The notes beneath the pieces were generated by a model. It was not told the DNA's origin, did not search any database, and worked only from the letters and a program-made list of their open reading frames with translations. Position numbers and translations under genes: made by a program. Positions 1 through 55,747 of a stretch of 64,000 nucleotides of DNA are shown piece after piece. The stretch's first letter is position 1. Every line of letters begins with the position of its first letter. Origin of the DNA: Escherichia phage EC.W14-3; the sequence record PP496998.1; one strand, written 5' to 3'.

Positions 1-5
1 GTGGT

Positions 6-227
6 TTGAACCATCTCCACGCTGGGTGGGCAGACGCAGGGTTTAATAGCAGTAAGCTGACATTTGAATTCCATAACGTAACCAAGCATCATAGCTTACG
101 AGTTCGTGCTGGTATGCGTGTTGGTCAGATGGTTATGTTTGAGCACTCTCATGCAGGGGAGCACTCCTATGCAGTGAAGGGTCGTTATAATAACTCTGAA
201 GGTGTAGTTGCATCTAAAGGTGTGTAA
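6..227 (+). CDS. hypothetical protein (frame open to window start; may begin upstream)
   Basis: ORF track 73 aa; C-terminus loosely resembles the three downstream 65-69 aa paralogs. Confidence 0.3.
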   Translation: MNHLHAGWADAGFNSSKLTFEFHNVTKHHSLRVRAGMRVGQMVMFEHSHAGEHSYAVKGRYNNSEGVVASKGV

Positions 228-425
228 ATGAAAAAGTGGATTGTTCGTGTACATGATAACACGACTGGAGAGTTAGTAGCTGTAGATTTTGTTAAGACTC
301 GAGAGCACGCACGTAGGGTCAAAAATCAATACAAATCTACTTTTAGACTTAATAAGGTTACACTAGGAAAAGCTATCGTGAATAGTGAAGGTGCTTTTTG
401 TGTTAACAGTAAGGTTTATTATTAA
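228..425 (+). CDS. small hypothetical protein, tandem paralog family A (1 of 3)
   Basis: 65 aa; shares W-V-V..TR..AR..K...SKVYY pattern with next two ORFs; back-to-back with overlapping stop/start. Confidence 0.45.
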   Translation: MKKWIVRVHDNTTGELVAVDFVKTREHARRVKNQYKSTFRLNKVTLGKAIVNSEGAFCVNSKVYY

Positions 426-634
426 TGAGACCGATCACTATGAGACAATTTTGGTTAGCAAAGATTAAGTGGGCATCAGGTGGTATGACTATGACTGCAC
501 TACTCACTCGTCAACAGGCTCGAGATTTTAAAAAGTCTATGTTCAATGTAGACTTAACTAAGAGCATCAGTATTCATAAGGCCAAGGAGTATTCTTCTGG
601 TCGTGTTTATATCAGCGGAAAGGTACATTACTAA
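425..634 (+). CDS. small hypothetical protein, tandem paralog family A (2 of 3)
   Basis: 69 aa; ends GKVHY like neighbours; ATG overlaps upstream stop. Confidence 0.45.
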   Translation: MRPITMRQFWLAKIKWASGGMTMTALLTRQQARDFKKSMFNVDLTKSISIHKAKEYSSGRVYISGKVHY

Positions 635-843
635 TGAAAAAGATGTGGGCTATTCATGTTGTTTGGGATCTTGAGCAACACATGAGAAAAGATAACATCA
701 AATTGTTTGACACTCGCAAAGAGGCTCGTATTGCTAAGAAACAGTTGAAGACTCTGGGCACAATAGTAAAAAGCGCTGACATACATCGCTGGTATGAAGA
801 CCCTAACACTGGTTCTTTTATGTCTAAAGTAATTTACTACTGA
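634..843 (+). CDS. small hypothetical protein, tandem paralog family A (3 of 3)
   Basis: 69 aa; ends SKVIYY; ATG overlaps upstream stop. Confidence 0.45.
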   Translation: MKKMWAIHVVWDLEQHMRKDNIKLFDTRKEARIAKKQLKTLGTIVKSADIHRWYEDPNTGSFMSKVIYY

Positions 844-867
844 TTGGTAGTAGATATGATAACTCTC

Positions 868-876
868 AAATGTATA
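868..876 (+). promoter_or_regulatory. AAATGTATA, near-match to recurrent TAATGTATA promoter-like motif
   Basis: 1 mismatch to the 9-mer; 40 nt upstream of ATG 916 in gene orientation. Confidence 0.3.
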
Positions 877-915
877 TAGAGTACAATAAGAATTTGTATT
901 TTACAGGAGAGAGTT

Positions 916-1245
916 ATGTTAGATTTGAGTAAAGTGGCCCCGCCCACTGAAGAGATTACAAAATCCAAGGTGATGCAACAGTTTTATCATCGTGATATGC
1001 TTGGTCGCTTTATCAAGAATCGTGATGTTGTTGCTTGGTCTATTGGTAATCAGGGATATCTGTTGAAGGTTCTTCAGGTTACAGGCTCAACTGCTAAGCG
1101 AGTTAAGGTGTATGACCCTGAAATGGGGCGTTCTAAGTCAGTAGACCCACAGAACTGCATCGTAATTACCCAGCAGGTAATGGATAATATTGCACGTAAC
1201 GTTGCTAACTCAGTTGAACTTGATGGAGAAAACCCAAATGCATAA
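916..1245 (+). CDS. hypothetical protein
   Basis: 109 aa ORF; GGAG RBS (acaggagagagttATG). Confidence 0.5.
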   Translation: MLDLSKVAPPTEEITKSKVMQQFYHRDMLGRFIKNRDVVAWSIGNQGYLLKVLQVTGSTAKRVKVYDPEMGRSKSVDPQNCIVITQQVMDNIARNVANSVELDGENPNA

Positions 1246-1801
1246 GAATGTTTTTGATTTACCTGAGATTGGTCGTGACAGTTATAGTATGTTAGACCGG
1301 TCTGATCTTTCAATCTCTCGCCTTGAAACAATGCAAGGCATGATTAGTGCAAACAGCCTAGAACACATCCTGAGCTGCTTACAAGCTAACATGGAACTAT
1401 TGCATATCAAAGCTAAAAACTACCACTGGAACGTCTCTGGTGCAGGATTTCAGGGTGTCCATGGTATGTTTGATGAGCTGGAAGATTACGCACGACAGGT
1501 AGGAGATCGTATTGCTGAACGTATGCGTTACCACTGTGTTAAAGTGGATGCTACAGCAGCTAATTATCTTTCTCATGCTTGGTTCTCAGAGGGGAATGCT
1601 GATCTAGACATGGACGGTATGCTCTCTGATATGTGCATGACCTTGATGTGTATTATTGAGAAGATGGATGAGTTTGATGGTGATTTAGCCTCCCACCCTG
1701 TCGATCAGAGTATGCTTCAAGAAATTAATGAAGGTCTTGGCAAGTATTGCTACTTCGTCAAGAGCAACATGTCCCATTCAAGTGGTGACGTGTCTTACTA
1801 A
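1238..1801 (+). CDS. Dps-like ferritin-family protein
   Basis: KNYHWNVSGAGFQGVHGMFDELEDYARQVGDRIAERMR matches Dps ferroxidase-region signature (HWN..G..F...H..F); start set at ATG 1238 overlapping upstream stop. Confidence 0.7.
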   Translation: MHKNVFDLPEIGRDSYSMLDRSDLSISRLETMQGMISANSLEHILSCLQANMELLHIKAKNYHWNVSGAGFQGVHGMFDELEDYARQVGDRIAERMRYHCVKVDATAANYLSHAWFSEGNADLDMDGMLSDMCMTLMCIIEKMDEFDGDLASHPVDQSMLQEINEGLGKYCYFVKSNMSHSSGDVSY

Positions 1802-1861
1802 AACCTCCGCCCTGTCTCCTAACCCGAGGTGGGGCGAACTTATTTATAAGGATATAGATAT

Positions 1862-2041
1862 ATGTTATCAGCAATCGTATGGGGTATTTGGGCTATCTTT
1901 ATTGGTGGTGGTATTTATTGGGCTTCTGGTAAGCTTATTGAAGAAACTCCTGATAAGAAAGGTGAAATTCAAACAGCATCAACCATCATGGTTATTGTAG
2001 CTGTTGTTATCCCGTTCCTACTTCACCTCCTGACTGCATAA
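1862..2041 (+). CDS. small membrane protein (59 aa, two hydrophobic segments)
   Basis: ATG after AGGA RBS; MLSAIVWGIWAIFIGGG...IMVIVAVVIPFLL; below the track length cutoff; preferred over overlapping track ORF 1728-2000. Confidence 0.3.
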   Translation: MLSAIVWGIWAIFIGGGIYWASGKLIEETPDKKGEIQTASTIMVIVAVVIPFLLHLLTA

Positions 2042-2049
2042 GGATTTAC

Positions 2050-2325
2050 ATGTCTAAAGTAATTAAGTTTTATAGCGATCAGTGTGCTCCATGTAAAGCA
2101 ATGGCTCCTACCTTTGAGAAGGTTGTTAAGGAGTTTGATGTAGAAGTGGAAGAGATTAACATCCTTGAAGGTGATGGTCGTGAACAAGCTGTTAAGTATG
2201 GTGTACGAAGTATCCCTGCTTTCGTTGTGCCTGACCGTAACAGTGGTGCGCACTACAGCCTCTCCGGTATGCAGACTGAAGCAAACCTGAAAGCATTTTT
2301 GGACACAGCCCTGAGAAATAAGTAA
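2050..2325 (+). CDS. thioredoxin-like protein
   Basis: CAPC active-site CxxC in thioredoxin context (FYSDQCAPCKAMAP), downstream cis-Pro region VRSIPAFVV. Confidence 0.75.
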   Translation: MSKVIKFYSDQCAPCKAMAPTFEKVVKEFDVEVEEINILEGDGREQAVKYGVRSIPAFVVPDRNSGAHYSLSGMQTEANLKAFLDTALRNK

Positions 2326-2340
2326 TAAGGATATTCACGG

Positions 2341-2997
2341 ATGAATGAACAACTACAAGCAACATTAATCGAAGCTATGGGAAGTGATCGTAGCGTAGTA
2401 AACGCAGCTCGAGTTTCCTTTGGCGTAACCCGTGAAGGTGATTTAAATGAACGTGATGAACGTCTCATCAACTTTCTCGCAAGAGAGAAGCATGTTACCC
2501 CATTCCGACACCCGCAAGTCAGTTTCCGATGCAAAGCACCTATCGCAATTGCGAGACAGCTGGGCAAGCATCAGGTTGGATTCTCGTGGAACGAAATGTC
2601 CCGGCGGTATAAAGATGGAGCAGTTGAAGTCTTCATCCCTAAAGAGATTTTTGCGAGACCTTCGGACCTCCATGCAGGTTCAGGGATTCAACTCATCGAC
2701 GGAGAGCGAGCTGAAGCATTAATGCTGATTAATGATGCATATGAAGCTTCTCTAGCAGCATATGACAAGTTGATTGAATTTATTGCACCAGAGCAGGCTC
2801 GATTTGTTCTTCCTCAGGGGATGATCACTGAGTGGGTGTGGACTGGTTCTTTGTATGGCTGGTTTGAGTTGTGCCGTCAGCGACTCTCCTCTCACGCTCA
2901 ATATGAAGTTCGAGTGTTTGCTAAATCTCTAGATGAAGAGATGGCTAAACTCTACCCAATCTCGTGGGCAGCTCTGAAGAAAACTTTGGAGAGTTAA
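2341..2997 (+). CDS. thyX: ThyX-like FAD-dependent thymidylate synthase family protein (variant signature)
   Basis: APIAIARQLGKHQVGFSWNEMSRRY aligns to ThyX [23 protein letters not shown]; canonical RHR replaced by KHQ. Confidence 0.65.
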   Translation: MNEQLQATLIEAMGSDRSVVNAARVSFGVTREGDLNERDERLINFLAREKHVTPFRHPQVSFRCKAPIAIARQLGKHQVGFSWNEMSRRYKDGAVEVFIPKEIFARPSDLHAGSGIQLIDGERAEALMLINDAYEASLAAYDKLIEFIAPEQARFVLPQGMITEWVWTGSLYGWFELCRQRLSSHAQYEVRVFAKSLDEEMAKLYPISWAALKKTLES

Positions 2998-2998
2998 A

Positions 2999-3247
2999 AT
3001 GGCTAGTAAAAGTATTTGGATTCTGAGTCGTGTTGAAGAGACAGACAGAGGGGAGTACACAGAAGTGCTTTGCTCTTTCATTACATACCCCACAAAACAA
3101 CAGCTTGAAGATGCTGGAGTAGAAATAAATCTTTCTCAATCTCTTTTTGATAAAAAGGTTTCCAAGTCAACAGCCCCATTCTTTGGTTATTACTACACAC
3201 TTGATAGTTTGGAGCTACTGATGAATGATTCTTGTTTGGAGAATTAA
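2999..3247 (+). CDS. hypothetical protein
   Basis: 82 aa ORF immediately after thyX-like gene. Confidence 0.4.
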   Translation: MASKSIWILSRVEETDRGEYTEVLCSFITYPTKQQLEDAGVEINLSQSLFDKKVSKSTAPFFGYYYTLDSLELLMNDSCLEN

Positions 3248-3381
3248 TGTTGGAAGAAGATGACGATGTGTTCTGCACCAAGTGTGGGATGACAGTTGAT
3301 GATGCATATGACCCAAGTGTAGAAATTTGTCCATGTTGCAGAGTATGTGAATATTGCTGTTCCCACAACTCAGAGGATTAG
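3247..3381 (+). CDS. small Cys-rich protein (44 aa, zinc-ribbon-like)
   Basis: CTKCG...CPCCRVCEYCC; ATG overlaps upstream stop; not in ORF track (short). Confidence 0.25.
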   Translation: MLEEDDDVFCTKCGMTVDDAYDPSVEICPCCRVCEYCCSHNSED

Positions 3382-3393
3382 CAGGAATTCCTT

Positions 3394-3627
3394 ATGAAGA
3401 TAAAACATATTACAGATATTCAGGAGGCATTTAGAATGCTTCCTCGAAGAGAGAAAGATAAGATTAAGAAGCTTATTCAAGTCTATGGTCATACATCTGA
3501 AGGTGATGTAGATTATATGCCTGCCACTTTTAGAGAATGCGGAATTGCTCGTAATTTCACATTTGATCATAAAGTATTTCAGCAATTCGTTGACCACTGG
3601 AGAAAAGATGGAAAAGAAAGTCTGTAG
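3394..3627 (+). CDS. hypothetical protein
   Basis: 77 aa ORF. Confidence 0.35.
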   Translation: MKIKHITDIQEAFRMLPRREKDKIKKLIQVYGHTSEGDVDYMPATFRECGIARNFTFDHKVFQQFVDHWRKDGKESL

Positions 3628-3793
3628 CTTCTGTAATAAAGAGAAGACTGTCGCCAACTTTAAACCTAATCCTGTAACTGGTCTGACCCATGTCATGTGC
3701 CACTCTTGCAGGATATATCTTGAAACAAAACACACTATCAATAGATTGCATTATTATCACCCAACAACATTCAAATTTAAGGTTGTGAAATGA
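3608..3793 (+). CDS. small zinc-ribbon protein
   Basis: MEKKVCSFCNKEK...MCHSCRIY, two CxxC pairs; internal ATG of track ORF 3545-3793. Confidence 0.35.
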   Translation: MEKKVCSFCNKEKTVANFKPNPVTGLTHVMCHSCRIYLETKHTINRLHYYHPTTFKFKVVK

Positions 3794-4119
3794 TTGACAG
3801 TAATACATTTAGGACTTCAAATGGAAGTGAAATAAGTCCCGCTGAAGTAATCAATCGGCATAGAAGGCAATTGATCATCCATTCCTATTTGTATTACTGG
3901 TTGGATGACCCTATCTGGTCTGATGATAAATGGCAACAAGTTGCTAATGATCTAGTGGAGCTGCAAGCTCTGTATCCAGAGCCTACCGGAGTCTTTGACA
4001 GTGAGTTCAAAGATTGGGATGGTTCTACAGGGATGCACCTCCCACACAATGAGACTGTTGCTTGTATGGCGACAGCTGTTTACAGGATTCATAAAGATAT
4101 GAACCATGAAGTGCTCTAG
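3790..4119 (+). CDS. hypothetical protein
   Basis: 109 aa ORF, start overlaps upstream stop. Confidence 0.45.
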   Translation: MIDSNTFRTSNGSEISPAEVINRHRRQLIIHSYLYYWLDDPIWSDDKWQQVANDLVELQALYPEPTGVFDSEFKDWDGSTGMHLPHNETVACMATAVYRIHKDMNHEVL

Positions 4120-4291
4120 ATGTGAAGGAACAAACCTTCATTTAAGTAACAAGGTTATCAGAGAGCTTGCCAAAGGCTCTCCAACCAAAGGGAAGAACAA
4201 ACGATTTACTAACGTCAGGGTTTATACAGCAATCTGCAAAGACTGCTTAACTACTGAGTGTCATTACGAAGAAATTGGAGAGCGTAAATGA
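4106..4291 (+). CDS. small zinc-ribbon protein
   Basis: 61 aa; CSRCEG...CKDCLTTEC. Confidence 0.4.
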   Translation: MKCSRCEGTNLHLSNKVIRELAKGSPTKGKNKRFTNVRVYTAICKDCLTTECHYEEIGERK

Positions 4292-5025
4292 GTCGTCGTC
4301 AATCACGGAAAGAATCACGGAAAGACCTTCGTCGAGAAGCACTTGTTACTCGTAAGGGTAAGCGAGAGTATGAAGAGGTGGTTTTAGCAAAGCCTGTAGT
4401 CCCTCAGAACCAGTTTCAGTCTGAGCTACTCAATGCTATTAAGACTAAACAAGTTGTGTTCACAGACGCTCCTGCGGGCTGTGGTAAGACCTTTGTAATC
4501 ACTTCCACGGTTATTGATGCACTGAAGAGTGGTAAGATTCAGAAGATCATCCTGAGTCGACCTTCAGTTGGCATGGGTAACTCTCTTGGGTTACTTCCGG
4601 GAGGAATGCGTGAGAAGTTTGAACCATACCTGATGCCTATCATTGATGTTATTACTCAGCGATACGGTAAGGGATTCTATGAATGCCAAATCGGAAATGG
4701 TAACATTGAATTTGTACCTCTGGAATATCTCCGTGGTCGCTCTTTCAACGATGCCATTGTTATCGTAGATGAGTTCCAGAACACAACTAAGGATGAAGCC
4801 TTCTCCATCATGACTCGATTGGGAGAAACCTCTCAATTGTTCTGTATGGGTGATACAAACCAGCATGATATGCGTGGTCGCGAGAGTGGTCTAACTTGGG
4901 CTACTAACTTTATTGATGAACACGATCTGTATGAGTTTGCTGAGATTGTAGATGGTGAATCAGATGATATTGTTCGTTCTGGTTTCTGTAAGGCGATTGT
5001 TAAAGCAATGGAAAAGAAAGCTTAA
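4288..5025 (+). CDS. phoH: PhoH-like ATPase
   Basis: Walker A DAPAGCGKTF, Walker B IVIVDEFQN, PhoH-type spacing. Confidence 0.85.
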   Translation: MSRRQSRKESRKDLRREALVTRKGKREYEEVVLAKPVVPQNQFQSELLNAIKTKQVVFTDAPAGCGKTFVITSTVIDALKSGKIQKIILSRPSVGMGNSLGLLPGGMREKFEPYLMPIIDVITQRYGKGFYECQIGNGNIEFVPLEYLRGRSFNDAIVIVDEFQNTTKDEAFSIMTRLGETSQLFCMGDTNQHDMRGRESGLTWATNFIDEHDLYEFAEIVDGESDDIVRSGFCKAIVKAMEKKA

Positions 5026-5036
5026 ACAGTAACTTA

Positions 5037-5045
5037 TAATGTATA
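5037..5045 (+). promoter_or_regulatory. TAATGTATA promoter-like motif
   Basis: exact 9-mer 37 nt upstream of ATG 5082, gene orientation. Confidence 0.4.
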
Positions 5046-5081
5046 CTCCTTAGTGTACACTGATATATTAAGGAGTTTTAA

Positions 5082-5399
5082 ATGGCAGATCATGTAGGAA
5101 AGAGAGATTATGCACAAGAAAGACGTACCGCAATTGCCCGTGGTGAGACAGGCGTTGGGAGCAAGAGCGGAGATGCTCAGCGCCACCGTGCACGTCGCAT
5201 CGTTGAAAAGCGCGATGGAAAAGCTGCTGTCAGAGGTAAAGACGTTGGACACAAACGAGCTGTCAAGTCTGGAGGCTCTAATGCGTCAAGCAACTTACGT
5301 GTTGAATCAGTCAGCTCAAACCGTTCAAACGGCGGCAAAAGTGGTGATCGAGCTGGAAAAGCAAACGGAGCTAGGAAGGGGGCGTTGAGTGGTTCTTGA
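5082..5399 (+). CDS. basic Gly/Lys/Arg-rich protein
   Basis: strong RBS AAGGAG; codon position-1 G bias supports this frame over overlapping track ORF 5110-5388. Confidence 0.45.
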   Translation: MADHVGKRDYAQERRTAIARGETGVGSKSGDAQRHRARRIVEKRDGKAAVRGKDVGHKRAVKSGGSNASSNLRVESVSSNRSNGGKSGDRAGKANGARKGALSGS

Positions 5400-5880
5400 T
5401 GACACCTTATCTTACGATGCGGTCACAGGTAACCTATATTACACAAAATCTCCTAGCAAAGGAGTGATGTGGAACAAAAGCCACCCCGGAAAGATAGCTG
5501 GATGTATGATATCGAAAGGCTATATCGGTGTGTATTTCCAAGGAAGACGATGGAGAGCGCACCGACTTATAGCTACGCACTTTATACCAAACCCTAACAA
5601 TTATCCAGAAGTCAACCACATCAATGGGATAAAAGACGATAATCGACTGGAGAATCTTGAATGGGTATCCGCTTCTGAAAACATACAACATTCCTTTGAT
5701 ACAGGGTTGAATAAAGGGCACACTCGTGACAATAACGGAATGACCAAATTATCCTCTGGAGATGTTGTAAAGATTAAACAGATGTATGTGAAGGGTTCTA
5801 GGGATTTTGGCTCTAGAGGTCTTGGTAAGTTGTTTGGCGTGAGCCATACAGCTATACTCCATGCTTTAAAGGAGCTTTAA
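5389..5880 (+). CDS. HNH homing endonuclease
   Basis: HRLIATHFIPNPNNYPEVNHINGIKDDNRLENLEWVSASEN HNH motif; GTG start at 5389 or ATG at 5467. Confidence 0.75.
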   Translation: MVLDDTLSYDAVTGNLYYTKSPSKGVMWNKSHPGKIAGCMISKGYIGVYFQGRRWRAHRLIATHFIPNPNNYPEVNHINGIKDDNRLENLEWVSASENIQHSFDTGLNKGHTRDNNGMTKLSSGDVVKIKQMYVKGSRDFGSRGLGKLFGVSHTAILHALKEL

Positions 5881-5895
5881 GCTCATCGTAATATG

Positions 5896-5925
5896 AGGCT
5901 ACCCAAATGGGTGGCCTTTTCTTTC
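5896..5925 (+). terminator. rho-independent terminator
   Basis: hairpin aggctaccc/gggtggcct (9 bp incl. wobble) then TTTTCTTT. Confidence 0.6.
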
Positions 5926-5959
5926 ATATAAACCAAAATAAACTTCTTAGGTAATAAAT

Positions 5960-6214
5960 ATGTCTATTGTAAAAATCGTAAATATTTTTGATGTAACCAG
6001 AGATGGCAAGATTGTTAAGTGGACTTTCACTAACCACCACAACAAATCAAACAAGATCATCGAACGGATGATTGAGATTAACCCAAAAACAGCTCGCACT
6101 AACGTACTCCTTCGAGGAGCTGATGGAAAATTTATCTCTTATAAGAATAAGAACGTAGAAAAATCTTTCCGTGTTGCAGTAGAAAATCTCATCCCATTCC
6201 CTAAAGGAGTTTAA
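5960..6214 (+). CDS. hypothetical protein, tandem paralog family B (1 of 2)
   Basis: 84 aa; shares KTARTNV(L/M)LR...GKFISY...PFP(K/R)G with next ORF. Confidence 0.5.
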   Translation: MSIVKIVNIFDVTRDGKIVKWTFTNHHNKSNKIIERMIEINPKTARTNVLLRGADGKFISYKNKNVEKSFRVAVENLIPFPKGV

Positions 6215-6215
6215 T

Positions 6216-6500
6216 ATGAATAAGTTAGCTATGGTTCAGATTCGAGACACATACCCTAACCGCCCGGAGCAGAAACCGCGTACTTGGTCTTATCTGTTGG
6301 CTGAAAGTAAGACTATTGACAAATACGCTGTAGGGATTGATGCTATTCCAAATAGTGTCACATTACTCCCTCACAAAACAGCCAGAACTAATGTAATGTT
6401 ACGTGATAGCAAAGGTAAGTTTATCTCTTATCGTGATTCAAGAATCAATAATGAAATTAAATCTGCTGTGGAATTTTTGATGCCATTCCCAAGAGGTTGA
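6216..6500 (+). CDS. hypothetical protein, tandem paralog family B (2 of 2)
   Basis: 94 aa paralog of 5960-6214. Confidence 0.5.
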   Translation: MNKLAMVQIRDTYPNRPEQKPRTWSYLLAESKTIDKYAVGIDAIPNSVTLLPHKTARTNVMLRDSKGKFISYRDSRINNEIKSAVEFLMPFPRG

Positions 6501-6503
6501 GTT

Positions 6504-6662
6504 ATGAAAGAGTATATTTACGTTGGTCAGCGGTGGTTCGGTGATGAATGGGAAGGTGGATACAGCGTTGTGAAAGCTTTTAAGTCTGAAGAAGATGCCA
6601 AGGCATGGGTCTTAAAAGATGACGTTGGCGAGAGAACTTACATTGAAGTAGAGGTGGAGTAG
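6504..6662 (+). CDS. small acidic protein (52 aa)
   Basis: ATG 4 nt after upstream stop; MKEYIYVGQRWFGDEWEGG; short, not in track. Confidence 0.3.
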   Translation: MKEYIYVGQRWFGDEWEGGYSVVKAFKSEEDAKAWVLKDDVGERTYIEVEVE

Positions 6663-6663
6663 A

Positions 6664-7086
6664 ATGCCATTACCAGCTAGACACCAAAACCGTTTCTTAG
6701 TTCTTAAGTGGGATGATATCGAAATGAATCTCACTGAACATGAACTTGATTTGTTCCATGAACTACTGTCAGAGATTCGCTCTGGTATCCCTGAACGTCA
6801 GTATGTGGTTATCAGTGATAAGCACCCTCAAGAGTTTGAAGAAGCTTGGGGTATGAAGTTGGCTTACATTCAGAGAGCTATCCGAGAAAGAGAAGAAGTC
6901 GCTAACCAAAGGGTTGTGGCTCATTTAGTACGAGAGCAACCTCGTGAAGCTAGGGCTAACCATGCACCACCTCCACCTACTCCTCGGATAGTTGTTAACG
7001 GGGCGGTTAGGGCTTACAGTTATGAAGCTACCGCGTTAGATGTGATAGAAGATAACCAAGCATTTACAGATTTACTTTACCAATAA
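6664..7086 (+). CDS. hypothetical protein
   Basis: 140 aa ORF directly upstream of DNA polymerase. Confidence 0.5.
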   Translation: MPLPARHQNRFLVLKWDDIEMNLTEHELDLFHELLSEIRSGIPERQYVVISDKHPQEFEEAWGMKLAYIQRAIREREEVANQRVVAHLVREQPREARANHAPPPPTPRIVVNGAVRAYSYEATALDVIEDNQAFTDLLYQ

Positions 7087-7102
7087 TTTAAAGGAGTATA
7101 AA

Positions 7103-8947
7103 GTGAGCAACCCGGACGCTCTTCCATTTTTGACAGAGATGACTGTCGCTGATATAATCTCTAAGCAAGCAAAGCACGGAGTTAGTTTCAACCGAAGAAA
7201 TGCTCGGTGGTATGTTCACCTCCTTAAAGAGATTATTGTTAATATTGACAGAGAGTTGATTCCTCTCTTACCTAAGATGAGATTAGATGGCTCTACTTAT
7301 ATGAAGCCGTTTAAGAAGTCTGGAGCTTTACAGAAGTGGCCTCAAGCTTATTGTGATAGGGTTGGGCTGAAAAGAGAAGACATTGGTGGAGCATTCACCT
7401 GTGTCGAATATGTAGACTTTGATCCATCGAAAGATGCACGAGTTAAAGAAGCTCTTATGGATGAGGGCTTTCTTCCTCCAGAGTTTAACGTATCTAAGAA
7501 GCCTTGGAATACTTTCGAAATTAAGAAAGATATGAGAAAGTATGGAACATACCAAGCATGGTATACTGCTTGGATGCGAGGTAATGCTAAACAGAAGCAG
7601 ACAGCCGAGATGGTTGACGCTGATATTAGAAAGTTCTTAGAGAAGCATTTTCGGTTTAAAACTAAGAACTACATGAAGGCTTACGTATTTGGTTTGGGAT
7701 TAAACCCTAATCGCCGTAATCCTGTAACGTTTGATGAGATTAAGAAAGCACTAGCCACATCAAACAAGTGGCCTACAGCTCCTACAAACCTCGAGGAGAC
7801 TCTTGAAGAAGGGTTAGGGGGTGAGCTAGGGAGTGTCGGAAGTTTGCTTAAGAGACGCGTTGTGGCGGCTCACAGGCTAGGTCTTATCAGTGGACTCATA
7901 GCAAAGGAACGCGAAGATGGTAAACTTTCGGCAGAAGCTAACAGCTGCGCTACGCCGACTTTTCGATTCAAACATCGTATCGTGGTTAATATTCCCTCCC
8001 GTGGTCTGTTTGGTCACGAGTGTCGCAGTTTGTTTGAGTCTGACTATAACTCAGACAGTGATCACTCTCGTCCTTTCGTTATTACTAACGTTGTTCCTGA
8101 TGGTTGTTATATACGAAAAGGTACTAACGTAATTTACGAGAAAGGTAAGCCGGGGAAGAAAGACAAACCTGTAGGCGCTTACAAATATTACATACCCACT
8201 GGTAAAGAAGTATTCTTAGGGTATGATGGTTCTGGACTGGAACTTCGTATGCTCGCTCACTACCTCATTAAAGAGTGTAGGGATATGCTTGCTGAGGCAA
8301 TTGAAGAGAACAACCCAGCTAAGAAAGCTCTGGCAGAACGTGGTTTAGCTTCTGCTATTATGTATCGTGATATTCTCCTTGAAGGTGATATCCACTCCCA
8401 CAACCAGAAACTTGCTGGTCTTCCTACTCGTGACAACGCTAAGACATTTATCTATGCATTCAACTACGGTGCTGGCGATGCTAAGCTTGGTTCAATTGTA
8501 GGTGGTGGGGCTGACGAAGGTTCAGTGATGCGAGCACGTTTCTTAGCAGAGAACCCATGTATTGCAATCCTCATTGATCGTATGACAGAGAAAGCTGCTC
8601 AAGGATACTTGATTGGAGTTGATGGTCGTAAGATTACAATGAGACGGGATGCCACTGGTAAGGTTATGGTTCATAAAGCCCTTAACACACTCCTGCAATG
8701 TGCTGGTGCTGTTGTTATGAAATATGCTATGATGTTCCTTAACAAGTGGATTGAGAAAGATAAGGTTCGTTGTGCTAAGGTAATTGATATGCACGATGAA
8801 GGTCAATTCTCAGTAAACCGTAATGATGTACAGAAACTCAAAGAGCACACTGAGCTTTGTGTTAAGAAAGCTGGCGAGTATCTGAACATGGAATGTCCTC
8901 TGGCATCTGATTGTCAGATTGGACTTAACTGGATGCATACACACTAA
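7103..8947 (+). CDS. family A DNA polymerase (polymerase domain)
   Basis: Pol A motif A GYDGSGLELRMLAHY, motif B RDNAKTFIYAFNYGAG, motif C DMHDEGQF; RBS AAGGAG; no 3'-5' exonuclease motifs seen at N-terminus. Confidence 0.85.
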   Translation: MSNPDALPFLTEMTVADIISKQAKHGVSFNRRNARWYVHLLKEIIVNIDRELIPLLPKMRLDGSTYMKPFKKSGALQKWPQAYCDRVGLKREDIGGAFTCVEYVDFDPSKDARVKEALMDEGFLPPEFNVSKKPWNTFEIKKDMRKYGTYQAWYTAWMRGNAKQKQTAEMVDADIRKFLEKHFRFKTKNYMKAYVFGLGLNPNRRNPVTFDEIKKALATSNKWPTAPTNLEETLEEGLGGELGSVGSLLKRRVVAAHRLGLISGLIAKEREDGKLSAEANSCATPTFRFKHRIVVNIPSRGLFGHECRSLFESDYNSDSDHSRPFVITNVVPDGCYIRKGTNVIYEKGKPGKKDKPVGAYKYYIPTGKEVFLGYDGSGLELRMLAHYLIKECRDMLAEAIEENNPAKKALAERGLASAIMYRDILLEGDIHSHNQKLAGLPTRDNAKTFIYAFNYGAGDAKLGSIVGGGADEGSVMRARFLAENPCIAILIDRMTEKAAQGYLIGVDGRKITMRRDATGKVMVHKALNTLLQCAGAVVMKYAMMFLNKWIEKDKVRCAKVIDMHDEGQFSVNRNDVQKLKEHTELCVKKAGEYLNMECPLASDCQIGLNWMHTH

Positions 8948-23956: not shown

Positions 23957-24925
23957 TTAAGTACTAGCCAACCCACCGATTACACCCCCAGCTAATGCAC
24001 CCCAAGGCCCAAAGGAAGAGCCAGCTGCTGCACCACTCATAGCTCCACCAAGGAAACCACCTTTGCCACCAGATGTTTTAGTAGTTGTAGTTTGTCCGAG
24101 AGCACCGTTAAGTACACCTGCTGCACCGAGTTGGTTATTGATATCTTGCCATCCCCAATTAGCTGCGTTCTGAGCATTCTGGTAGGCATTATCATATTCA
24201 TTCTGTTGTTGCTGTTGTTGCTGCAACCCTGCATTCCATTGATTCATTATTTGCTGTTGAGACAAATTAGCACCCTGCTGACCTAGGTTAGAAAGGTTAG
24301 AACCAATATTAGAAAGACCAGAGAGAGCAGCTGCCTGATTCTGTCTATTACCAGAGAGGATGCTTTCAGCTTGGCTAATAGCCGAGTTATAGGCACTATT
24401 GGTAATATCTGTTGCTTGGCCTTGCATCTGATTCAGAGCATCACCTTGGGCAAAAGACTTAGCCATACGAGCACCTGAACCTTGTTGACCAGCAAACTGT
24501 TGAGCTAACTGAGGAAGAGCATTACGTGCCAAGTTCTGTTGAACCTGTTCATTATTAGCTGTAATGGCTGCTTGCACAGCGTCATCATCATACAGTTGAC
24601 CAGCGAGAGCACCAATCTGCTCTCCAGTAATCCCACCTTGTCCAGAGAGGCTCTGATAACCTTTATAGGCATTATCTAGATAACCCAAGCCTTGACCTGC
24701 TGCATCCATATACTGCTGTGAGAGAGTACCTAGAGCGCCAGATTGTGCTAGGTTGTTAAGTGCCTCTGTCTGATTGTTATTAAACCCTACATTGTCACGA
24801 TAAACATAATCCCCTGAACTAGTATTACCAATCTGTTGGTTAAGCTGGTCAATATACTGTTGAATGTATTCAGGGCGAATCATTTGGGAAGTAGTTTTAC
24901 TACCCCCGCCTCCGAAAAGTCCCAT
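23957..24925 (-). CDS. Q/N/G-rich virion protein (paralog 1)
   Basis: 322 aa; MGLFGGGGSKTT N-terminus, Gln/Asn-rich middle, Gly-rich hydrophobic C-terminus; RBS GGAGA. Confidence 0.5.
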   Translation of the reverse strand: MGLFGGGGSKTTSQMIRPEYIQQYIDQLNQQIGNTSSGDYVYRDNVGFNNNQTEALNNLAQSGALGTLSQQYMDAAGQGLGYLDNAYKGYQSLSGQGGITGEQIGALAGQLYDDDAVQAAITANNEQVQQNLARNALPQLAQQFAGQQGSGARMAKSFAQGDALNQMQGQATDITNSAYNSAISQAESILSGNRQNQAAALSGLSNIGSNLSNLGQQGANLSQQQIMNQWNAGLQQQQQQQNEYDNAYQNAQNAANWGWQDINNQLGAAGVLNGALGQTTTTKTSGGKGGFLGGAMSGAAAGSSFGPWGALAGGVIGGLAST

Positions 24926-24937
24926 ATCAAATCTCCT

Positions 24938-25990
24938 TTAGTTTGCTCCAAATGCCCCTAAGACACCACCTAAGATATTACTACCTGCTGTGGATAACCA
25001 GTTAGACTGACCTTTCTGTTGAGAAAGATTAGAACCACCAATCATAGGACCAGCCATTCCAGATTGCCCACCTGAGTTGTTATAGGAACTCCAAGCATTC
25101 TGAGTCTGTTGATTAGGAGAGAAAGCACCCATACGACCTGCAATACCTAATCCAGTGATACCAGCACCTAGGAGCTGTTGTCCAGTATTAACCCCCGGAG
25201 CAGCATTCTTAATCGTGTACCCAGCCATTGGGCTTACACTATTTAATACATTAAGTTGGTTGTTAAGCTGATTCCACCTATACTGTTGAGAGCCAATAGC
25301 GTTCTGCCAATTAATATCAGCTTGAGCTTGGGCTTGTTGCTGTTGTAGATTACCAGCCATGAGTTGATTCTGGATAGCTTGTTGAGTTGCCTGAACACCT
25401 TGAGCACCAAGATTGAGATTCTGTCCAGCCAATCCTGACTGAGCACCAAGTAAGCCCCTCTGGAAGTTTTGGTCTTGTTGAAGAGCACTGATTCCCATAT
25501 TCTTGCCACTGATAGTACGAGCTAAGTTTGTATTAGCACTGTTCAGAGCAGCACCTTGAGCAGCAGCTCTACGGAGAGAGCCTGAATCAGAACCATTTCC
25601 GAGGGATACATTGGAAGCTGCCTTACTAGTCGCTTGAGCAAGAGCTGAGTTATTCAATCCTTTACTAAAGTTATTAACACCATCAGCAGTTAGACCACCA
25701 CCATTGACAATATTCTGATACTGCTGTGCAAGAGAGTTTAATTGGTCCAACCCTTGCTGTGTACGAGGCGTGTACATATCAGCCAATTGCTTCTGAGTAG
25801 TAGAAGCTGCTAAGTTGTTCAGAGCACCCTGTTGGTTGCCATTAAACCCAGCCAGTTGTTGGGAGATGAATCCCGGATCGTTGTTCTGCATATTCTGAGC
25901 ATTAGCAACAATCTGCTTCAGCAGGGCATCAACCTGAGAGGAAGGGGCCACTGTGGTTTTGCTAGAAGCTGATTTTCCAAATAAAGACAT
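24938..25990 (-). CDS. Q/N/G-rich virion protein (paralog 2)
   Basis: 350 aa; MSLFGKSASSKTT N-terminus, shared GALNNLA motif and architecture with 23957-24925; RBS GGAGG. Confidence 0.5.
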   Translation of the reverse strand: MSLFGKSASSKTTVAPSSQVDALLKQIVANAQNMQNNDPGFISQQLAGFNGNQQGALNNLAASTTQKQLADMYTPRTQQGLDQLNSLAQQYQNIVNGGGLTADGVNNFSKGLNNSALAQATSKAASNVSLGNGSDSGSLRRAAAQGAALNSANTNLARTISGKNMGISALQQDQNFQRGLLGAQSGLAGQNLNLGAQGVQATQQAIQNQLMAGNLQQQQAQAQADINWQNAIGSQQYRWNQLNNQLNVLNSVSPMAGYTIKNAAPGVNTGQQLLGAGITGLGIAGRMGAFSPNQQTQNAWSSYNNSGGQSGMAGPMIGGSNLSQQKGQSNWLSTAGSNILGGVLGAFGAN

Positions 25991-35734: not shown

Positions 35735-38293
35735 TTACTCAGAAGGCATTTCAACACGAACTGAAATAAAAGCATCACTCGGGATATCAATAGGATCACC
35801 GTCAGAAAAACCTTCTATCTCATTTCTAGAAAAAACCGGAGAGGTTGGATGGGTTCTGTGATAGGTTTTAACTAAAATAGAACCATCTTCTTTAATCTCA
35901 TAGTCCAGCCAAACCCTAGGTTGTTTGTTGCGGTCAGTAGGGATTTCAAAGCCGCCGTCAATGCCTCCCCATTTTGCATCTGCGTTTAAGCCAAGGCAAC
36001 CGGTAATCAAGTACTCACCAACACCTTGCCGAATGACATTAACCCCCTCAGATTCCTCGTTCGTCTCATATCGACCGTCGGAGTAAATATGAACTACCGG
36101 AGATGCCGCTTTGATAAATCCGTTTACATCAACAGTGGTGTTTTTGTTTGTAAGACAATGGACATATTTTATTGTTCCGTCTGCAATCTTTATTGCGTAA
36201 GATATGCGACCGTATTGTGAGGCTTCGCCACCAGACCCTGCATATGACACACCGTGGGCAATCCAGAAGTTAGTATCCTCTGGCTGCATATACCAGTAGC
36301 AGTTAAACAAGTCTAAAGTAAACAGGCCGTTCCCGGAGGCATGTTGGACACGATCCCCAGTACCACCTACGCCTGAATTTGCTGGGGTGTTACTTAGCGC
36401 TCCAATATTGAACCTTGCACCAGCAGCATCTCCAGCCCCTGTCCCACCATTAGCAATAGGTACATTATCCAGAGTAGAAACACTTCCCAACCCTAGATTA
36501 GAACGAGCACTAGCAGCATTTTTAGCTCCAGTGCCTCCTCTTTCAACACCTAGAGCCAAATCGCCAACTCTTCCAGGCGAGGTACTGTAACATCCCCACC
36601 CATTATTATCCACAAAGAGGTAGGTTTCTTTGTTAGGAGATAGTAATCTACTCTCCCCAGAGGCTTGATCAACTCTATCTATAGATAAATTGGAACGAGC
36701 AGCATCAACAGTAGTTGCCCCTGTACCACCATTAGCTATAGGAATTGTGTTGAGTGTAGCTATGGAGCTTAGACCTAGATTAGAACGAGCACTAGCAGCG
36801 TCTTTAGCTCCAGTGCCTCCTTGTGTGACAGACAGTGCTGTAGTGAGTCCCGTGAGGGATGTTATATCAGAGTTTGTACCAGAAGCGGCAGCACCTAAAA
36901 TTGATCTGGAGATGTTCACATTACCAGTAATCTCATCAGGAGCTTGGTTATTTACAGTAACAACATAAGGTTTCTGAGCCTGTACAGACCCATTGTACTG
37001 AGAGTCTTTATCAGAATCTGGTGCTCTTATTGCCTCCCCTCCAGTCCAATCAGGAAGTCGAATGTTGATAAAATTAGTAGAATCTGCATCGGTAATACCA
37101 TCTGCCAATTTACCCCAAGAGAAGTATTGTTTAGCCCCTGCTTGCCATTCAGTTTCAGAAACAACAGGAAGTTGTCCACTGACAAGGGATGGGCCTAAAT
37201 CTGAAGCAGACTCTTTAGACACTAGACGACCATCGGCTGGAAGAACGCCCGGATAGGAGATATTCTTTGTTGGGTCATAAGGGAACATTACCATCTCACC
37301 AAGATATAGAGAAGGGTTTCCTGTTGGAATGGTAATGTCAATATTACCACTGGAGTCTGGAGAACGGGAATTAACAGTAAGAATTCTACCTTCAGTTTTA
37401 ACAGGAGTTAATGTTTTGTTAGCAGCAACAGTATAAAATTCATACTTAGTAGCTTCCCAAACTAAGACCTTCTCACCAACTTGGCGATACTGAGCGTCAG
37501 CATCAGCTTCTGCTTTAGATTGATATGTCTTGGTGGTTTTATCAAACTTGTCATTAATCTCTTGACGACTGTACTGAGCAACGTTCAGAACATTTCCTAA
37601 ACCTACCGTCTCTTTGTTAAGCGTTAGAGCAACCTCTCCATCAAGAGCTGGACCGCCGTTAATAGAGACAGAACGGACAGATGGGATTAAGTTAGCAATG
37701 TTATCTAGAGTAGTTTTGTGGACGGTGTTGTCATCTTTGTCAACATAGAAACCTAAATCACCTAGCTCTGGAACACCTGTAGGTGCTGTATCCAAATCCT
37801 TAACAGAACCATCTTTTCCGGGATCACCTTCTGGAATACCTAAAGAGATTACACCAGTGTTAGGATTAAAAGAGCCAGTAGCTGGAGTTCCCGGAGGGAG
37901 AGTTGTTACATCAACAGACATTCCTAACAGAACATCAAGCTGATTCTGGACTTCAATAAGTTTTTGGTTAATGAGAGCAACGGCATTATTAGCATCCGAT
38001 ACTGCTGCGTTGGTTTGGGCAATCAGAGTCATCAAACGAGCATCTTGATCCTTAAAATCCTGCTTAAGATCTTCAATATCCTGCTTCATCAGAACACCCT
38101 GTTGATATAGACGCTCTACTTCAGCGATTAAATCATCAATTGTACCAAACTTAGATTCTGCTAGCAGTGCCCAATATTTGGAGTCAGCTGCATATTCTGC
38201 TGCTTGCTTGTAAGCTCCGATAGAGCCTTCAGTAGCACCAAACTGCCCAACGTTATTCACTGCATCAGGTGCTTGGTTATTATAAACGATCAT
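35735..38293 (-). CDS. tail fiber protein
   Basis: 852 aa; internal repeats GGTGAK(D/N)AASARSNLGL; RBS AAGGAGA. Confidence 0.65.
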   Translation of the reverse strand: MIVYNNQAPDAVNNVGQFGATEGSIGAYKQAAEYAADSKYWALLAESKFGTIDDLIAEVERLYQQGVLMKQDIEDLKQDFKDQDARLMTLIAQTNAAVSDANNAVALINQKLIEVQNQLDVLLGMSVDVTTLPPGTPATGSFNPNTGVISLGIPEGDPGKDGSVKDLDTAPTGVPELGDLGFYVDKDDNTVHKTTLDNIANLIPSVRSVSINGGPALDGEVALTLNKETVGLGNVLNVAQYSRQEINDKFDKTTKTYQSKAEADADAQYRQVGEKVLVWEATKYEFYTVAANKTLTPVKTEGRILTVNSRSPDSSGNIDITIPTGNPSLYLGEMVMFPYDPTKNISYPGVLPADGRLVSKESASDLGPSLVSGQLPVVSETEWQAGAKQYFSWGKLADGITDADSTNFINIRLPDWTGGEAIRAPDSDKDSQYNGSVQAQKPYVVTVNNQAPDEITGNVNISRSILGAAASGTNSDITSLTGLTTALSVTQGGTGAKDAASARSNLGLSSIATLNTIPIANGGTGATTVDAARSNLSIDRVDQASGESRLLSPNKETYLFVDNNGWGCYSTSPGRVGDLALGVERGGTGAKNAASARSNLGLGSVSTLDNVPIANGGTGAGDAAGARFNIGALSNTPANSGVGGTGDRVQHASGNGLFTLDLFNCYWYMQPEDTNFWIAHGVSYAGSGGEASQYGRISYAIKIADGTIKYVHCLTNKNTTVDVNGFIKAASPVVHIYSDGRYETNEESEGVNVIRQGVGEYLITGCLGLNADAKWGGIDGGFEIPTDRNKQPRVWLDYEIKEDGSILVKTYHRTHPTSPVFSRNEIEGFSDGDPIDIPSDAFISVRVEMPSE
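36430..36860 (-). repeat. intragenic tandem repeats within tail fiber gene
   Basis: three copies of about 20-aa unit (GGTGAxxAAxARSNLGL / IANGGTGA); visible as repeated APVPPLAIG in antisense track ORFs 36387 and 36690. Confidence 0.6.
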
Positions 38294-55450: not shown

Positions 55451-55747
55451 ATGACTTTAGAAGTATATAAATTCCTTTTTGTAAGCTGTTTAACTATCAG
55501 CGTTCTAGGATTTATTGTTCTAAGAAACAAAGCAGCAAGCTGGGAAAGAATGTATAAATCCCTAGTCCGAGTGGATGAGATGTATAATGAGAAGGTTAAA
55601 GTAACACTCAACGATCTTATTATGCAAGTTGAGGACAGAAACAAGCGTCTTCAGAACCTCAATCACGAAGTGTTACGCCTTGCTCGTGCTAATGAAGACT
55701 TGCGAATAGCTATTGCTAAGCAGCAGGAGATTAACAGTGATAATTGA
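55451..55747 (+). CDS. membrane-anchored coiled-coil protein
   Basis: N-terminal TM FLFVSCLTISVLGFIVL then heptad-like charged region. Confidence 0.45.
   Translation: MTLEVYKFLFVSCLTISVLGFIVLRNKAASWERMYKSLVRVDEMYNEKVKVTLNDLIMQVEDRNKRLQNLNHEVLRLARANEDLRIAIAKQQEINSDN

What the first reader, a model, noticed from the sequence alone, without database searches (positions are those of the whole stretch)
228..6500. Two further tandem paralog sets near the left end
Three back-to-back 65-69 aa ORFs (228-843) share a pattern ending in (S/G)KV(Y/H/I)Y, and two adjacent ORFs (5960-6500) share KTARTNV(L/M)LR...GKFISY...PFP(K/R)G. With family C this makes three independently amplified small-protein families in one window, suggesting frequent local duplication.
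Basis: seen in the sequence. Interest (0 to 1): 0.4.

Follow-up and report, generated by a model that had tools for sequence, protein, structure and literature searches.

The report
Old tandem paralogs in a kuravirus
Two runs of adjacent small genes in this phiEco32-like E. coli phage are real but ancient duplicates of unknown function that are already catalogued as phage protein families, so the finding is correct but ordinary.

Summary
The window is a Kuravirus (Gordonclarkvirinae). Its first 8 kb are 100% identical to Escherichia phage EC.W2-6.

- ORFs 228-425, 425-634 and 634-843 (family A, = phiEco32 gp71/70/69) all match phrog_4939 (E~1e-27). Profiles of their orthologue groups align full-length (hhalign P 3e-9 to 1e-16; controls >=2e-3).
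- ORFs 5960-6214 and 6216-6500 (family B, = gp57/56) match phrog_6814 and each other (E 4e-16).

**The inference of frequent local duplication does not hold.**
- Copies share only 22-32% identity and have no DNA-level similarity.
- Each copy has positional orthologues in up to three genera.
- The duplications are therefore old, and the copies are kept under purifying selection (dN/dS 0.08-0.5).

**What the proteins look like.**
- All five are very basic (pI ~10) and 7.5-11 kDa.
- They are coupled by stop/start overlaps.
- They evolve much faster than their neighbours.
- No Pfam family, solved relative or informative fold match was found, and no homologue in 185,579 bacterial genomes.
- Family B stays between a gp58-like gene and the DNA polymerase even in distant uncultured phages.

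**Function.** Unknown. My best guess, at low confidence, is that they are small nucleic-acid-binding accessory proteins acting as homo- or hetero-oligomers. The main rival is host-takeover or anti-defence binders.

The parts
228..425 (+). Family A copy 1 (65 aa, pI 10.1); orthologue of phiEco32 gp71. It starts directly after the dCTP deaminase stop codon (TAAATG).
   Evidence: (phrog_4939, E 1.2e-27)
425..634 (+). Family A copy 2 (69 aa, pI 10.6); orthologue of phiEco32 gp70. It is the only copy present in all 98 Gordonclarkvirinae records. Its start overlaps the A1 stop codon (TAATG).
   Evidence: (E 1.5e-26)
634..843 (+). Family A copy 3 (69 aa, pI 9.8); orthologue of phiEco32 gp69. Its start overlaps the A2 stop codon (TAATG). 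The AF2 model is beta-beta-alpha-beta-beta with pLDDT 87.
   Evidence: (E 1.7e-28)
868..876 (+). AAATGTATA, a match to the phiEco32 gp36-sigma promoter element tAATGTAtA. It lies in the gap before the gp68 homologue (the position of the experimentally mapped gene-68 promoter in phiEco32) and marks the end of the transcription unit that contains family A.
   Evidence: PMC8948821; sequence
5037..5045 (+). TAATGTATA, a perfect gp36-sigma promoter element upstream of the gp58 homologue (the position of the mapped gene-58 promoter in phiEco32). It is the likely promoter of the operon gp58h - HNH - B1 - B2 - gp55h - gp54h - DNA polymerase.
5895..5918 (+). G+C-rich hairpin followed by a T-run (terminator-like or attenuator-like), just upstream of B1. 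A terminator is annotated at the same place in phage SU7.
5960..6214 (+). Family B copy 1 (84 aa, pI 10.3); orthologue of phiEco32 gp57. GenBank labels it 'autotransporter adhesin', and nothing found here supports that label. The AF2 model has pLDDT 90.7.
   Evidence: (phrog_6814, E 3.7e-36)
6216..6500 (+). Family B copy 2 (94 aa, pI 10.0); orthologue of phiEco32 gp56. It starts 1 nt after the B1 stop codon. The last codons of B1 (AAA GGA G) form its Shine-Dalgarno sequence.
   Evidence: (E 2.4e-36)

Best explanation
**Shown.**
- These are two unrelated, old families of small (7.5-11 kDa), strongly basic proteins specific to phiEco32-like phages.
- Each family arose by tandem duplication before the Gordonclarkvirinae genera split.
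- Each copy has since been kept as a separate, positionally conserved gene under purifying selection.
- Each gene is translationally coupled to its neighbours.
- Family A closes the transcription unit that carries primase/helicase, exonuclease, nucleotidyltransferase and dCTP deaminase.
- Family B sits in the gp36-sigma-dependent operon that ends in the DNA polymerase.

**Inferred.**
- The proteins bind a polyanion, most likely nucleic acid. Family A would do so through the invariant Thr-Arg-x-x-Ala-Arg-x-x-Lys helix. Family B would do so through the invariant T-A-R-T...R...G-K-F-x-S patch.
- The diverged neighbours act together as homo- or hetero-oligomers, as paralogous subunits made in fixed ratio often do.
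- They serve as accessory factors of phage DNA replication or nucleotide metabolism rather than as core enzymes.

I put the paralogy and the age of the duplications at about 0.95. The proposed function is much weaker; the confidence figure given is for the whole statement.
For: **Paralogy and coding status.**
- Paralogy.
- Real genes under purifying selection: dN/dS 0.08-0.51 in 19 orthologue comparisons.

**Age of the duplications.**
- Position-specific clades span genera.
- There is no DNA-level similarity between copies.
- Census in the 98 records.

**Charge and conserved residues.**
- pI is 9.8-10.6 and net charge is +6 to +10 for all five proteins.
- Invariant W5, R28, R32 and K35 in 113 family A sequences.
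- Invariant T47, G56, F58, S60 and F80, and near-invariant T44, A45, R46 and K57, in 78 family B sequences.

**Coupling.** TAATG stop/start overlaps are conserved across genera. The conserved Lys-Val / Lys-Gly codons serve as the Shine-Dalgarno sequence of the next gene.

**Operon context.**
- Promoter motifs lie at 868-876 and 5037-5045. These are the positions of the mapped phiEco32 promoters of genes 68 and 58 (PMC8948821).
- Family B keeps its place between a gp58-like gene and the DNA polymerase in uncultured 82-100 kb phages that have a single copy.

**Distribution.**
- No homologue in 185,579 bacterial or archaeal genomes.
- Only 37 clusters at 50% identity among 1.84 billion proteins, and all genuine hits are stand-alone small proteins.
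Against: - No nucleic-acid-binding domain was recognised. There are no Pfam or NCBIfam hits and no sequence relative in the PDB.
- Both families evolve far faster than the replication genes around them. Against SU7, A2, A3 and B2 are 39-48% identical, while dcd, PhoH and the DNA polymerase are 89-99% identical.
- Both families are mosaic and vary in copy number. That pattern is more typical of host-interaction genes than of replication factors.
- Hetero-oligomerisation was not tested.
- Gene order may be conserved simply by descent.
- Neither family was among the 34 SU10 proteins detected by mass spectrometry. Small proteins are easily missed, so this is uninformative.
Confidence: 0.4

Rival explanations
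1. They are host-takeover or counter-defence proteins. In this reading each is a small binder that inactivates a host protein, such as a nuclease, a defence sensor or a nucleoid protein. The paralogues would be diversified versions aimed at different host variants.
For: - The proteins are small ORFans restricted to virulent phages.
- Family A lies at the end of what the SU10 paper calls the early cluster.
- Both families are the fastest-evolving genes in a conserved block and are swapped as alleles between phages.
- Copy number varies: A1 is in about 64 of the 98 records, the dispersed copy is in 41, and one relative has a single A copy.
- Gordonclarkvirinae are unusually resistant to restriction-modification systems, and no inhibitor is known (PMC11990801).
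Against: - dN/dS is below 1 everywhere, and A2 and family B are universal in the subfamily. That fits a fixed job rather than an arms race.
- All copies are strongly basic, unlike the acidic DNA-mimic inhibitors such as Ocr, Ugi and p56.
- Family B is linked to the DNA polymerase even in distant phages.
Confidence: 0.3
2. This is the first reader's view: the window is a hot spot of ongoing, frequent local gene duplication, and these sets are recent amplifications.
For: Several small-protein families are amplified in one genome. Copy number differs between relatives.
Against: - Copies are 22-32% identical with no nucleotide similarity.
- Every copy has orthologues at the same position in other genera.
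- No genome examined has an extra, closely similar copy.
- The differences between relatives are losses, a homing-endonuclease replacement, and allele exchange.
Confidence: 0.05
3. They are basic internal virion proteins packaged with the DNA.
For: They have small size and high positive charge.
Against: - They are encoded in the early/middle strand block among replication genes, not in the late module.
- They are absent from the 34 proteins found by mass spectrometry of SU10 preparations, which did detect other small middle-gene products.
Confidence: 0.03

Closest known systems
PHROG families phrog_4939 (family A) and phrog_6814 (family B); phiEco32 gp71/gp70/gp69 and gp57/gp56
   Same: Matches are full-length and highly significant. 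Gene order is the same as in phiEco32, SU10, 172-1, EP335, SU7 and ECBP2.
   Different: Nothing differs; these are members. Both PHROGs are labelled 'unknown function'. None of the papers I could read mention the paralogy.
DUF2188 (Pfam PF09954), a small beta-beta-alpha-beta-beta protein family of bacteria and temperate phages
   Same: Size and predicted topology are similar. So is a motif pattern: W-x-V strand, then F-x-T-(K/R)-x-E-A helix start, then h-I-H strand, then G. The resemblance was recalled from memory and then tested.
   Different: - No family A member hits PF09954.
- hhalign against a real 6-sequence DUF2188 alignment gives only P 0.002-0.27 over 5-26 columns.
- hhalign against a consensus-like DUF2188 sequence gives P 0.01.
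- The function of DUF2188 is itself unknown, so homology would not explain the mechanism.
Paralogous small basic DNA-binding subunits such as HU alpha/beta and IHF alpha/beta (analogy only)
   Same: They are small basic proteins. In the analogy, diverged paralogues are made together and work as heterodimers on nucleic acid.
Clusters of small accessory genes next to the DNA polymerase gene in T7-like phages (genes 5.3-5.9) (established knowledge, analogy only)
   Same: These are small, fast-evolving, non-essential-looking ORFs embedded in the replication operon of a virulent podovirus. In T7 several of them act on host proteins (H-NS, RecBCD).
   Different: There is no detectable homology. The T7 genes are not paralogues of one another.

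Membership tests
phrog_4939 | Significant, end-to-end match to the family HMM | tested here: met
   The three ORFs score E 1.2e-27, 1.5e-26 and 1.7e-28 and cover profile positions 1-67 of 67.
phrog_6814 | Significant, end-to-end match to the family HMM | tested here: met
   E 3.7e-36 and 2.4e-36, covering about 1-86 of 86 profile positions.
   Copies are 22-32% identical at the protein level. Only 12-33 nt motif remnants are shared at the DNA level.
   The neighbour-joining tree groups copies by position (A1, A2, A3, dispersed copy; B1, B2), and each group spans genera.
Autotransporter adhesin (GenBank label of 5960-6214) | Autotransporter beta-barrel or YadA-type anchor, passenger repeats, large size and a signal peptide | tested here: not met
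   The protein is 84 aa. Neither it nor any of 78 relatives has a Pfam hit of that kind. Weak repeat hits to an SH3_3-repeat protein and a kinesin-repeat protein are artefacts of summed partial matches.
DUF2188 (PF09954) | Match to the Pfam HMM at or near the gathering score, or a significant profile-profile match | tested here: not met
   None of 113 members hit PF09954 at E<=10. hhalign gives P 0.002-0.27 and probability <=12%. My test sequences were confirmed as DUF2188. Power is limited by the small template alignment.
Uracil-DNA glycosylase inhibitors / DNA mimics (Ugi, p56) | Strongly acidic surface mimicking DNA | tested here: not met
Small nucleic-acid-binding proteins (functional class, not a sequence family) | Direct binding to DNA or RNA | not testable with these tools
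   Only indirect support exists: net charge, conserved Arg/Lys residues and the replication-operon context.
Hetero-oligomer of adjacent paralogues | Physical contact between A2-A3 or B1-B2 | not tested
Conserved stop/start overlaps are only suggestive.

The most novel reading that the evidence does not exclude
Family B has a confidently predicted fold (pLDDT 90.7) with no match in the PDB or BFVD outside its own family. It may be a previously unrecognised small subunit or DNA-binding accessory factor of the exonuclease-less family-A DNA polymerase of phiEco32-like phages. The fast-evolving family A triplet may be a set of diversified inhibitors that contributes to the unexplained restriction-modification resistance of Gordonclarkvirinae.
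Probability: 0.12. Interest if true: 0.55.

Novelty: already known. Interest (0 to 1): 0.17.

Why it matters
The finding matters only modestly. It shows that paralog runs in phage genomes can be ancient, stably inherited gene sets rather than signs of active duplication.

It also flags five conserved but rapidly diverging basic proteins inside the replication module of a phage group that is used for therapy and is notably resistant to restriction. Their function is unknown. Because Gordonclarkvirinae isolates (Bas86-93) have been obtained on E. coli K-12 with restored O16 O-antigen expression, they are cheap and well-defined targets for deletion and binding experiments.

Tried and rejected
1. 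**A and B as one superfamily.** hhalign gives P 0.27, so this is rejected.
2. **DUF2188 membership of family A** (recalled motif resemblance). Not supported.
3. **The 'autotransporter adhesin' label.** Unsupported.
4. **A weak SpoIID hit of the family B profile in the PDB.** E 0.016, treated as chance.
5. **Two long proteins among the family B profile hits.** They are SH3_3 and kinesin repeat proteins in which partial matches add up.
6. **UDG-inhibitor idea**, prompted by the dCTP deaminase neighbour and the dU-DNA speculation in PMC11990801. Rejected because the proteins are basic.
7. **The extra 68-aa ORF next to family A in SU10 and 172-1, and the 63-aa ORF in ECBP2.** They are unrelated insertions; the SU10 ORF matches phrog_2347.
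8. **Searches that could not run.**
   - The search for related loci with the family A alignment failed for lack of a conserved stretch.
   - The afdb50 library was not available.
   - The two primary phiEco32 papers (PMC2587145, PMC3275717) are not held. The temporal class of these individual genes therefore rests on secondary descriptions, and these disagree: the SU10 paper calls CDS 69-125 early, while the YF01 paper places the replication genes in the middle class.
9. **One literature search was wasted** on too loose a query.
Full report
**Source and setting**

Window 1-8000 is 100% identical to Escherichia phage EC.W2-6 (PP445229) and EC.W8-1. It is 92-97% identical to SU10, SGF2 and other members of the genus Kuravirus, subfamily Gordonclarkvirinae, the phiEco32-like C3 podoviruses.

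The region is the plus-strand replication and nucleotide-metabolism block. In order it carries:
- the end of the dCTP deaminase gene
- three small ORFs
- the gp68 homologue
- a Dps-like protein
- thioredoxin
- ThyX
- small ORFs
- PhoH
- the gp58 homologue
- an HNH endonuclease
- two small ORFs
- two more small ORFs
- the DNA polymerase.

Yes. The five ORFs are at the stated coordinates and carry the quoted motifs.

Family B (5960-6214, 6216-6500) is unambiguous.
- BLASTP gives E 4e-16.
- The Smith-Waterman score is z=21.6 against shuffles.

Family A (228-425, 425-634, 634-843) is weak in pairwise comparison.
- BLASTP E-values are 4e-4, 0.09 and 1e-3.
- Shuffle z-scores are 6.7, 2.0 and 4.8.

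Family-level evidence settles it.
- All three ORFs hit phrog_4939 end to end (E about 1e-27), and both B ORFs hit phrog_6814 (E about 1e-36).
- I collected 110 family A relatives and split them by best hit into three orthologue groups.
- Profile-profile alignment of those groups gave full-length matches with P 2.9e-9, 7.9e-10 and 9.6e-17.
- Reversed and column-shuffled controls stayed at P >= 1.7e-3.

A and B are unrelated to each other.

All five are real genes. dN/dS against orthologues is 0.08-0.51.

**How old are the duplications?**

The same copies sit at the same positions in several phages.
- phiEco32 has gp71/70/69 and gp57/56.
- SU10, 172-1 and KBNP1711 have the same sets.
- EP335 (Nieuwekanaalvirus) has three A copies and one B copy.
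- SU7 and ECBP2 (Suseptimavirus) have two A copies and two B copies.

A neighbour-joining tree groups the sequences by position, not by genome. Between copies there is no DNA similarity except a few motif codons.

tblastn finds these families only in 98 phage records, all Gordonclarkvirinae. The census among them is:
- A2 in 98
- A3 in 94
- A1 in about 64
- a more divergent fourth copy, lying between thioredoxin and ThyX and absent from this window, in 41
- at least one B copy in all 98 records, with 188 matching places in total, so most records hold two copies.

One uncultured relative has an HNH endonuclease where A1 would be and lacks A3.

The present-day dynamics are therefore loss, replacement and allele exchange of ancient paralogues. 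They are not frequent new duplication.

**Anatomy**

- **Coupling.** The dcd gene, A1, A2 and A3 are joined by TAAATG/TAATG stop-start overlaps that are conserved across genera. The conserved Lys-Val codons (AAGGT) near each C-terminus lie 9 nt before the next start codon and act as its Shine-Dalgarno sequence. B1 ends ...CCT AAA GGA GTT TAA T ATG, which likewise provides the ribosome-binding site of B2.
- **Promoters.** A match to the phiEco32 gp36-sigma promoter element (tAATGTAtA) lies right after A3 (868-876). A perfect match lies before the gp58 homologue (5037-5045). These are the positions of the experimentally mapped phiEco32 promoters of genes 68 and 58 (PMC8948821).
- **Transcription units.** Family A closes the upstream unit that carries primase/helicase, exonuclease, nucleotidyltransferase and dCTP deaminase. 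Family B lies in the middle operon that ends with the DNA polymerase, downstream of a hairpin-plus-T-run at 5895-5918. SU7's annotators also marked that position as a terminator.
- **Charge.** All five proteins are strongly basic, with pI 9.8-10.6 and net charge +6 to +10.
- **Conserved residues in family A.** W5, R28, R32 and K35 are invariant, and T27, A31 and the C-terminal Tyr are nearly invariant.
- **Conserved residues in family B.** T47, G56, F58, S60 and F80 are invariant. T-A-R, K57 and L-x-P-F-P are nearly invariant.

**Searches for relatives and folds**

- There are no Pfam or NCBIfam hits for the window proteins or for any of 113 (A) and 78 (B) relatives.
- There are no sequence relatives in the PDB.
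- The AF2 models are confident. Family A has pLDDT 87 and is beta-beta-alpha-beta-beta. Family B has pLDDT 90.7.
- In BFVD, family B matches only its own family.
- An exhaustive HMMER search of 1.84 billion representatives found just 37 clusters for family B. All are stand-alone proteins of 55-107 aa, except two repeat-protein artefacts.
- None of 185,579 bacterial or archaeal genomes encodes family B.
- Family B extends to uncultured 82-100 kb phages. There it is single-copy and still sits between a gp58-like gene and the DNA polymerase.
- Family A is confined to Gordonclarkvirinae-sized contigs, plus one weak member next to the polymerase gene of a 90 kb uncultured phage.

**Rate of evolution**

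Compared with SU7, the neighbours are well conserved:
- dcd 92%
- gp68h 92%
- Dps-like protein 82%
- thioredoxin 80%
- ThyX 80%
- PhoH 99%
- gp58h 91%
- DNA polymerase 89%

The two families are far more diverged: A2 48%, A3 46% and B2 39%.

The divergence is also mosaic. A3 is 99% identical in KBNP1711, where A1 and A2 are 52-54% identical. In 172-1 the pattern is reversed.

**Interpretation**

The solid conclusion is ancient, retained tandem paralogy in two phage-specific families of unknown function.

For mechanism I favour small polyanion-binding (nucleic-acid-binding) accessory proteins that work as oligomers of co-translated paralogues. The grounds are charge, conserved Arg/Lys positions, coupling, and the persistent linkage of family B to the polymerase operon. 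This is inference only, and I put it at roughly 0.4 including the solid part.

The fast, mosaic evolution and variable copy number fit the rival nearly as well. In that reading the proteins are protein-binding host-takeover or anti-defence factors. Gordonclarkvirinae are unusually resistant to restriction-modification systems, and no inhibitor is known (PMC11990801).

Internal virion proteins are unlikely. Chance similarity and recent amplification are excluded.

**Novelty**

The sequence is already deposited, and the families are already clustered in PHROGs v4. Homologues have been in GenBank since phiEco32. None of the papers I could read discuss them. The finding is correct but ordinary.

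Noticed in passing
They start at 55713, 55976, 56202, 56460, 59115, 60620, 60868 and 61578. They share a ...GDVF...Y... pattern, and those scanned cross-hit phrog_6570, 7431, 12612, 16423 and 7832. This is a bigger amplification than families A or B.
   Followed up: partly
relatives: L005 9581-9796, L007 9565-9774, L012 6026-6235: A fourth, more divergent family A paralogue lies between thioredoxin and ThyX in 41 of the 98 Gordonclarkvirinae records. It is absent from this window, where thioredoxin (2050-2325) directly abuts ThyX (2341-2997).
   Followed up: yes
window 5389-5880: An HNH homing endonuclease sits between the gp58 homologue and B1. SU10 and phiEco32 have other ORFs or nothing there. 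HNH insertions occur at different sites of this block in relatives: SU7 has one before ThyX, and L012 has one in place of A1.
   Followed up: partly
window 1238-1801 and 5960-6214: Two GenBank product names look wrong. The 'integrase' at 1238-1801 matches the Dps/ferritin-like DNA-binding protein family (phrog_3636; the equivalent gene in L008 carries a Pfam Ferritin hit). The 'autotransporter adhesin' at 5960-6214 is family B copy 1.
   Followed up: yes
window 6664-7086 and 1862-2041: The 140-aa acidic ORF directly upstream of the DNA polymerase (gp54 homologue) is 44% identical to its SU7 counterpart. The 59-aa membrane-like ORF (gp66 homologue) is 51% identical. Both diverge as fast as families A and B, whereas the 52-aa ORF at 6504-6662 is missing from SU7, EP335 and KBNP1711.
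   Followed up: no
window 23957-25990 (- strand): Two adjacent large ORFs in the late module (23957-24925 and 24938-25990) are 31% identical over 275 aa (E 2e-9). This is another old tandem duplication, probably of a structural gene.
   Followed up: no
window 36387-36968 (+ strand): Two plus-strand ORFs inside the minus-strand late region share 66% identity over 41 aa. This probably reflects a repeat within a late gene on the other strand.
   Followed up: no
window as a whole: PP445229 is only 67,000 bp long, and the match starts at its position 7245. A 64-kb window therefore cannot fit in that record. The window probably comes from the 76,408-bp sister record PQ030848 (EC.W8-1) or from a differently permuted copy.
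   Followed up: no
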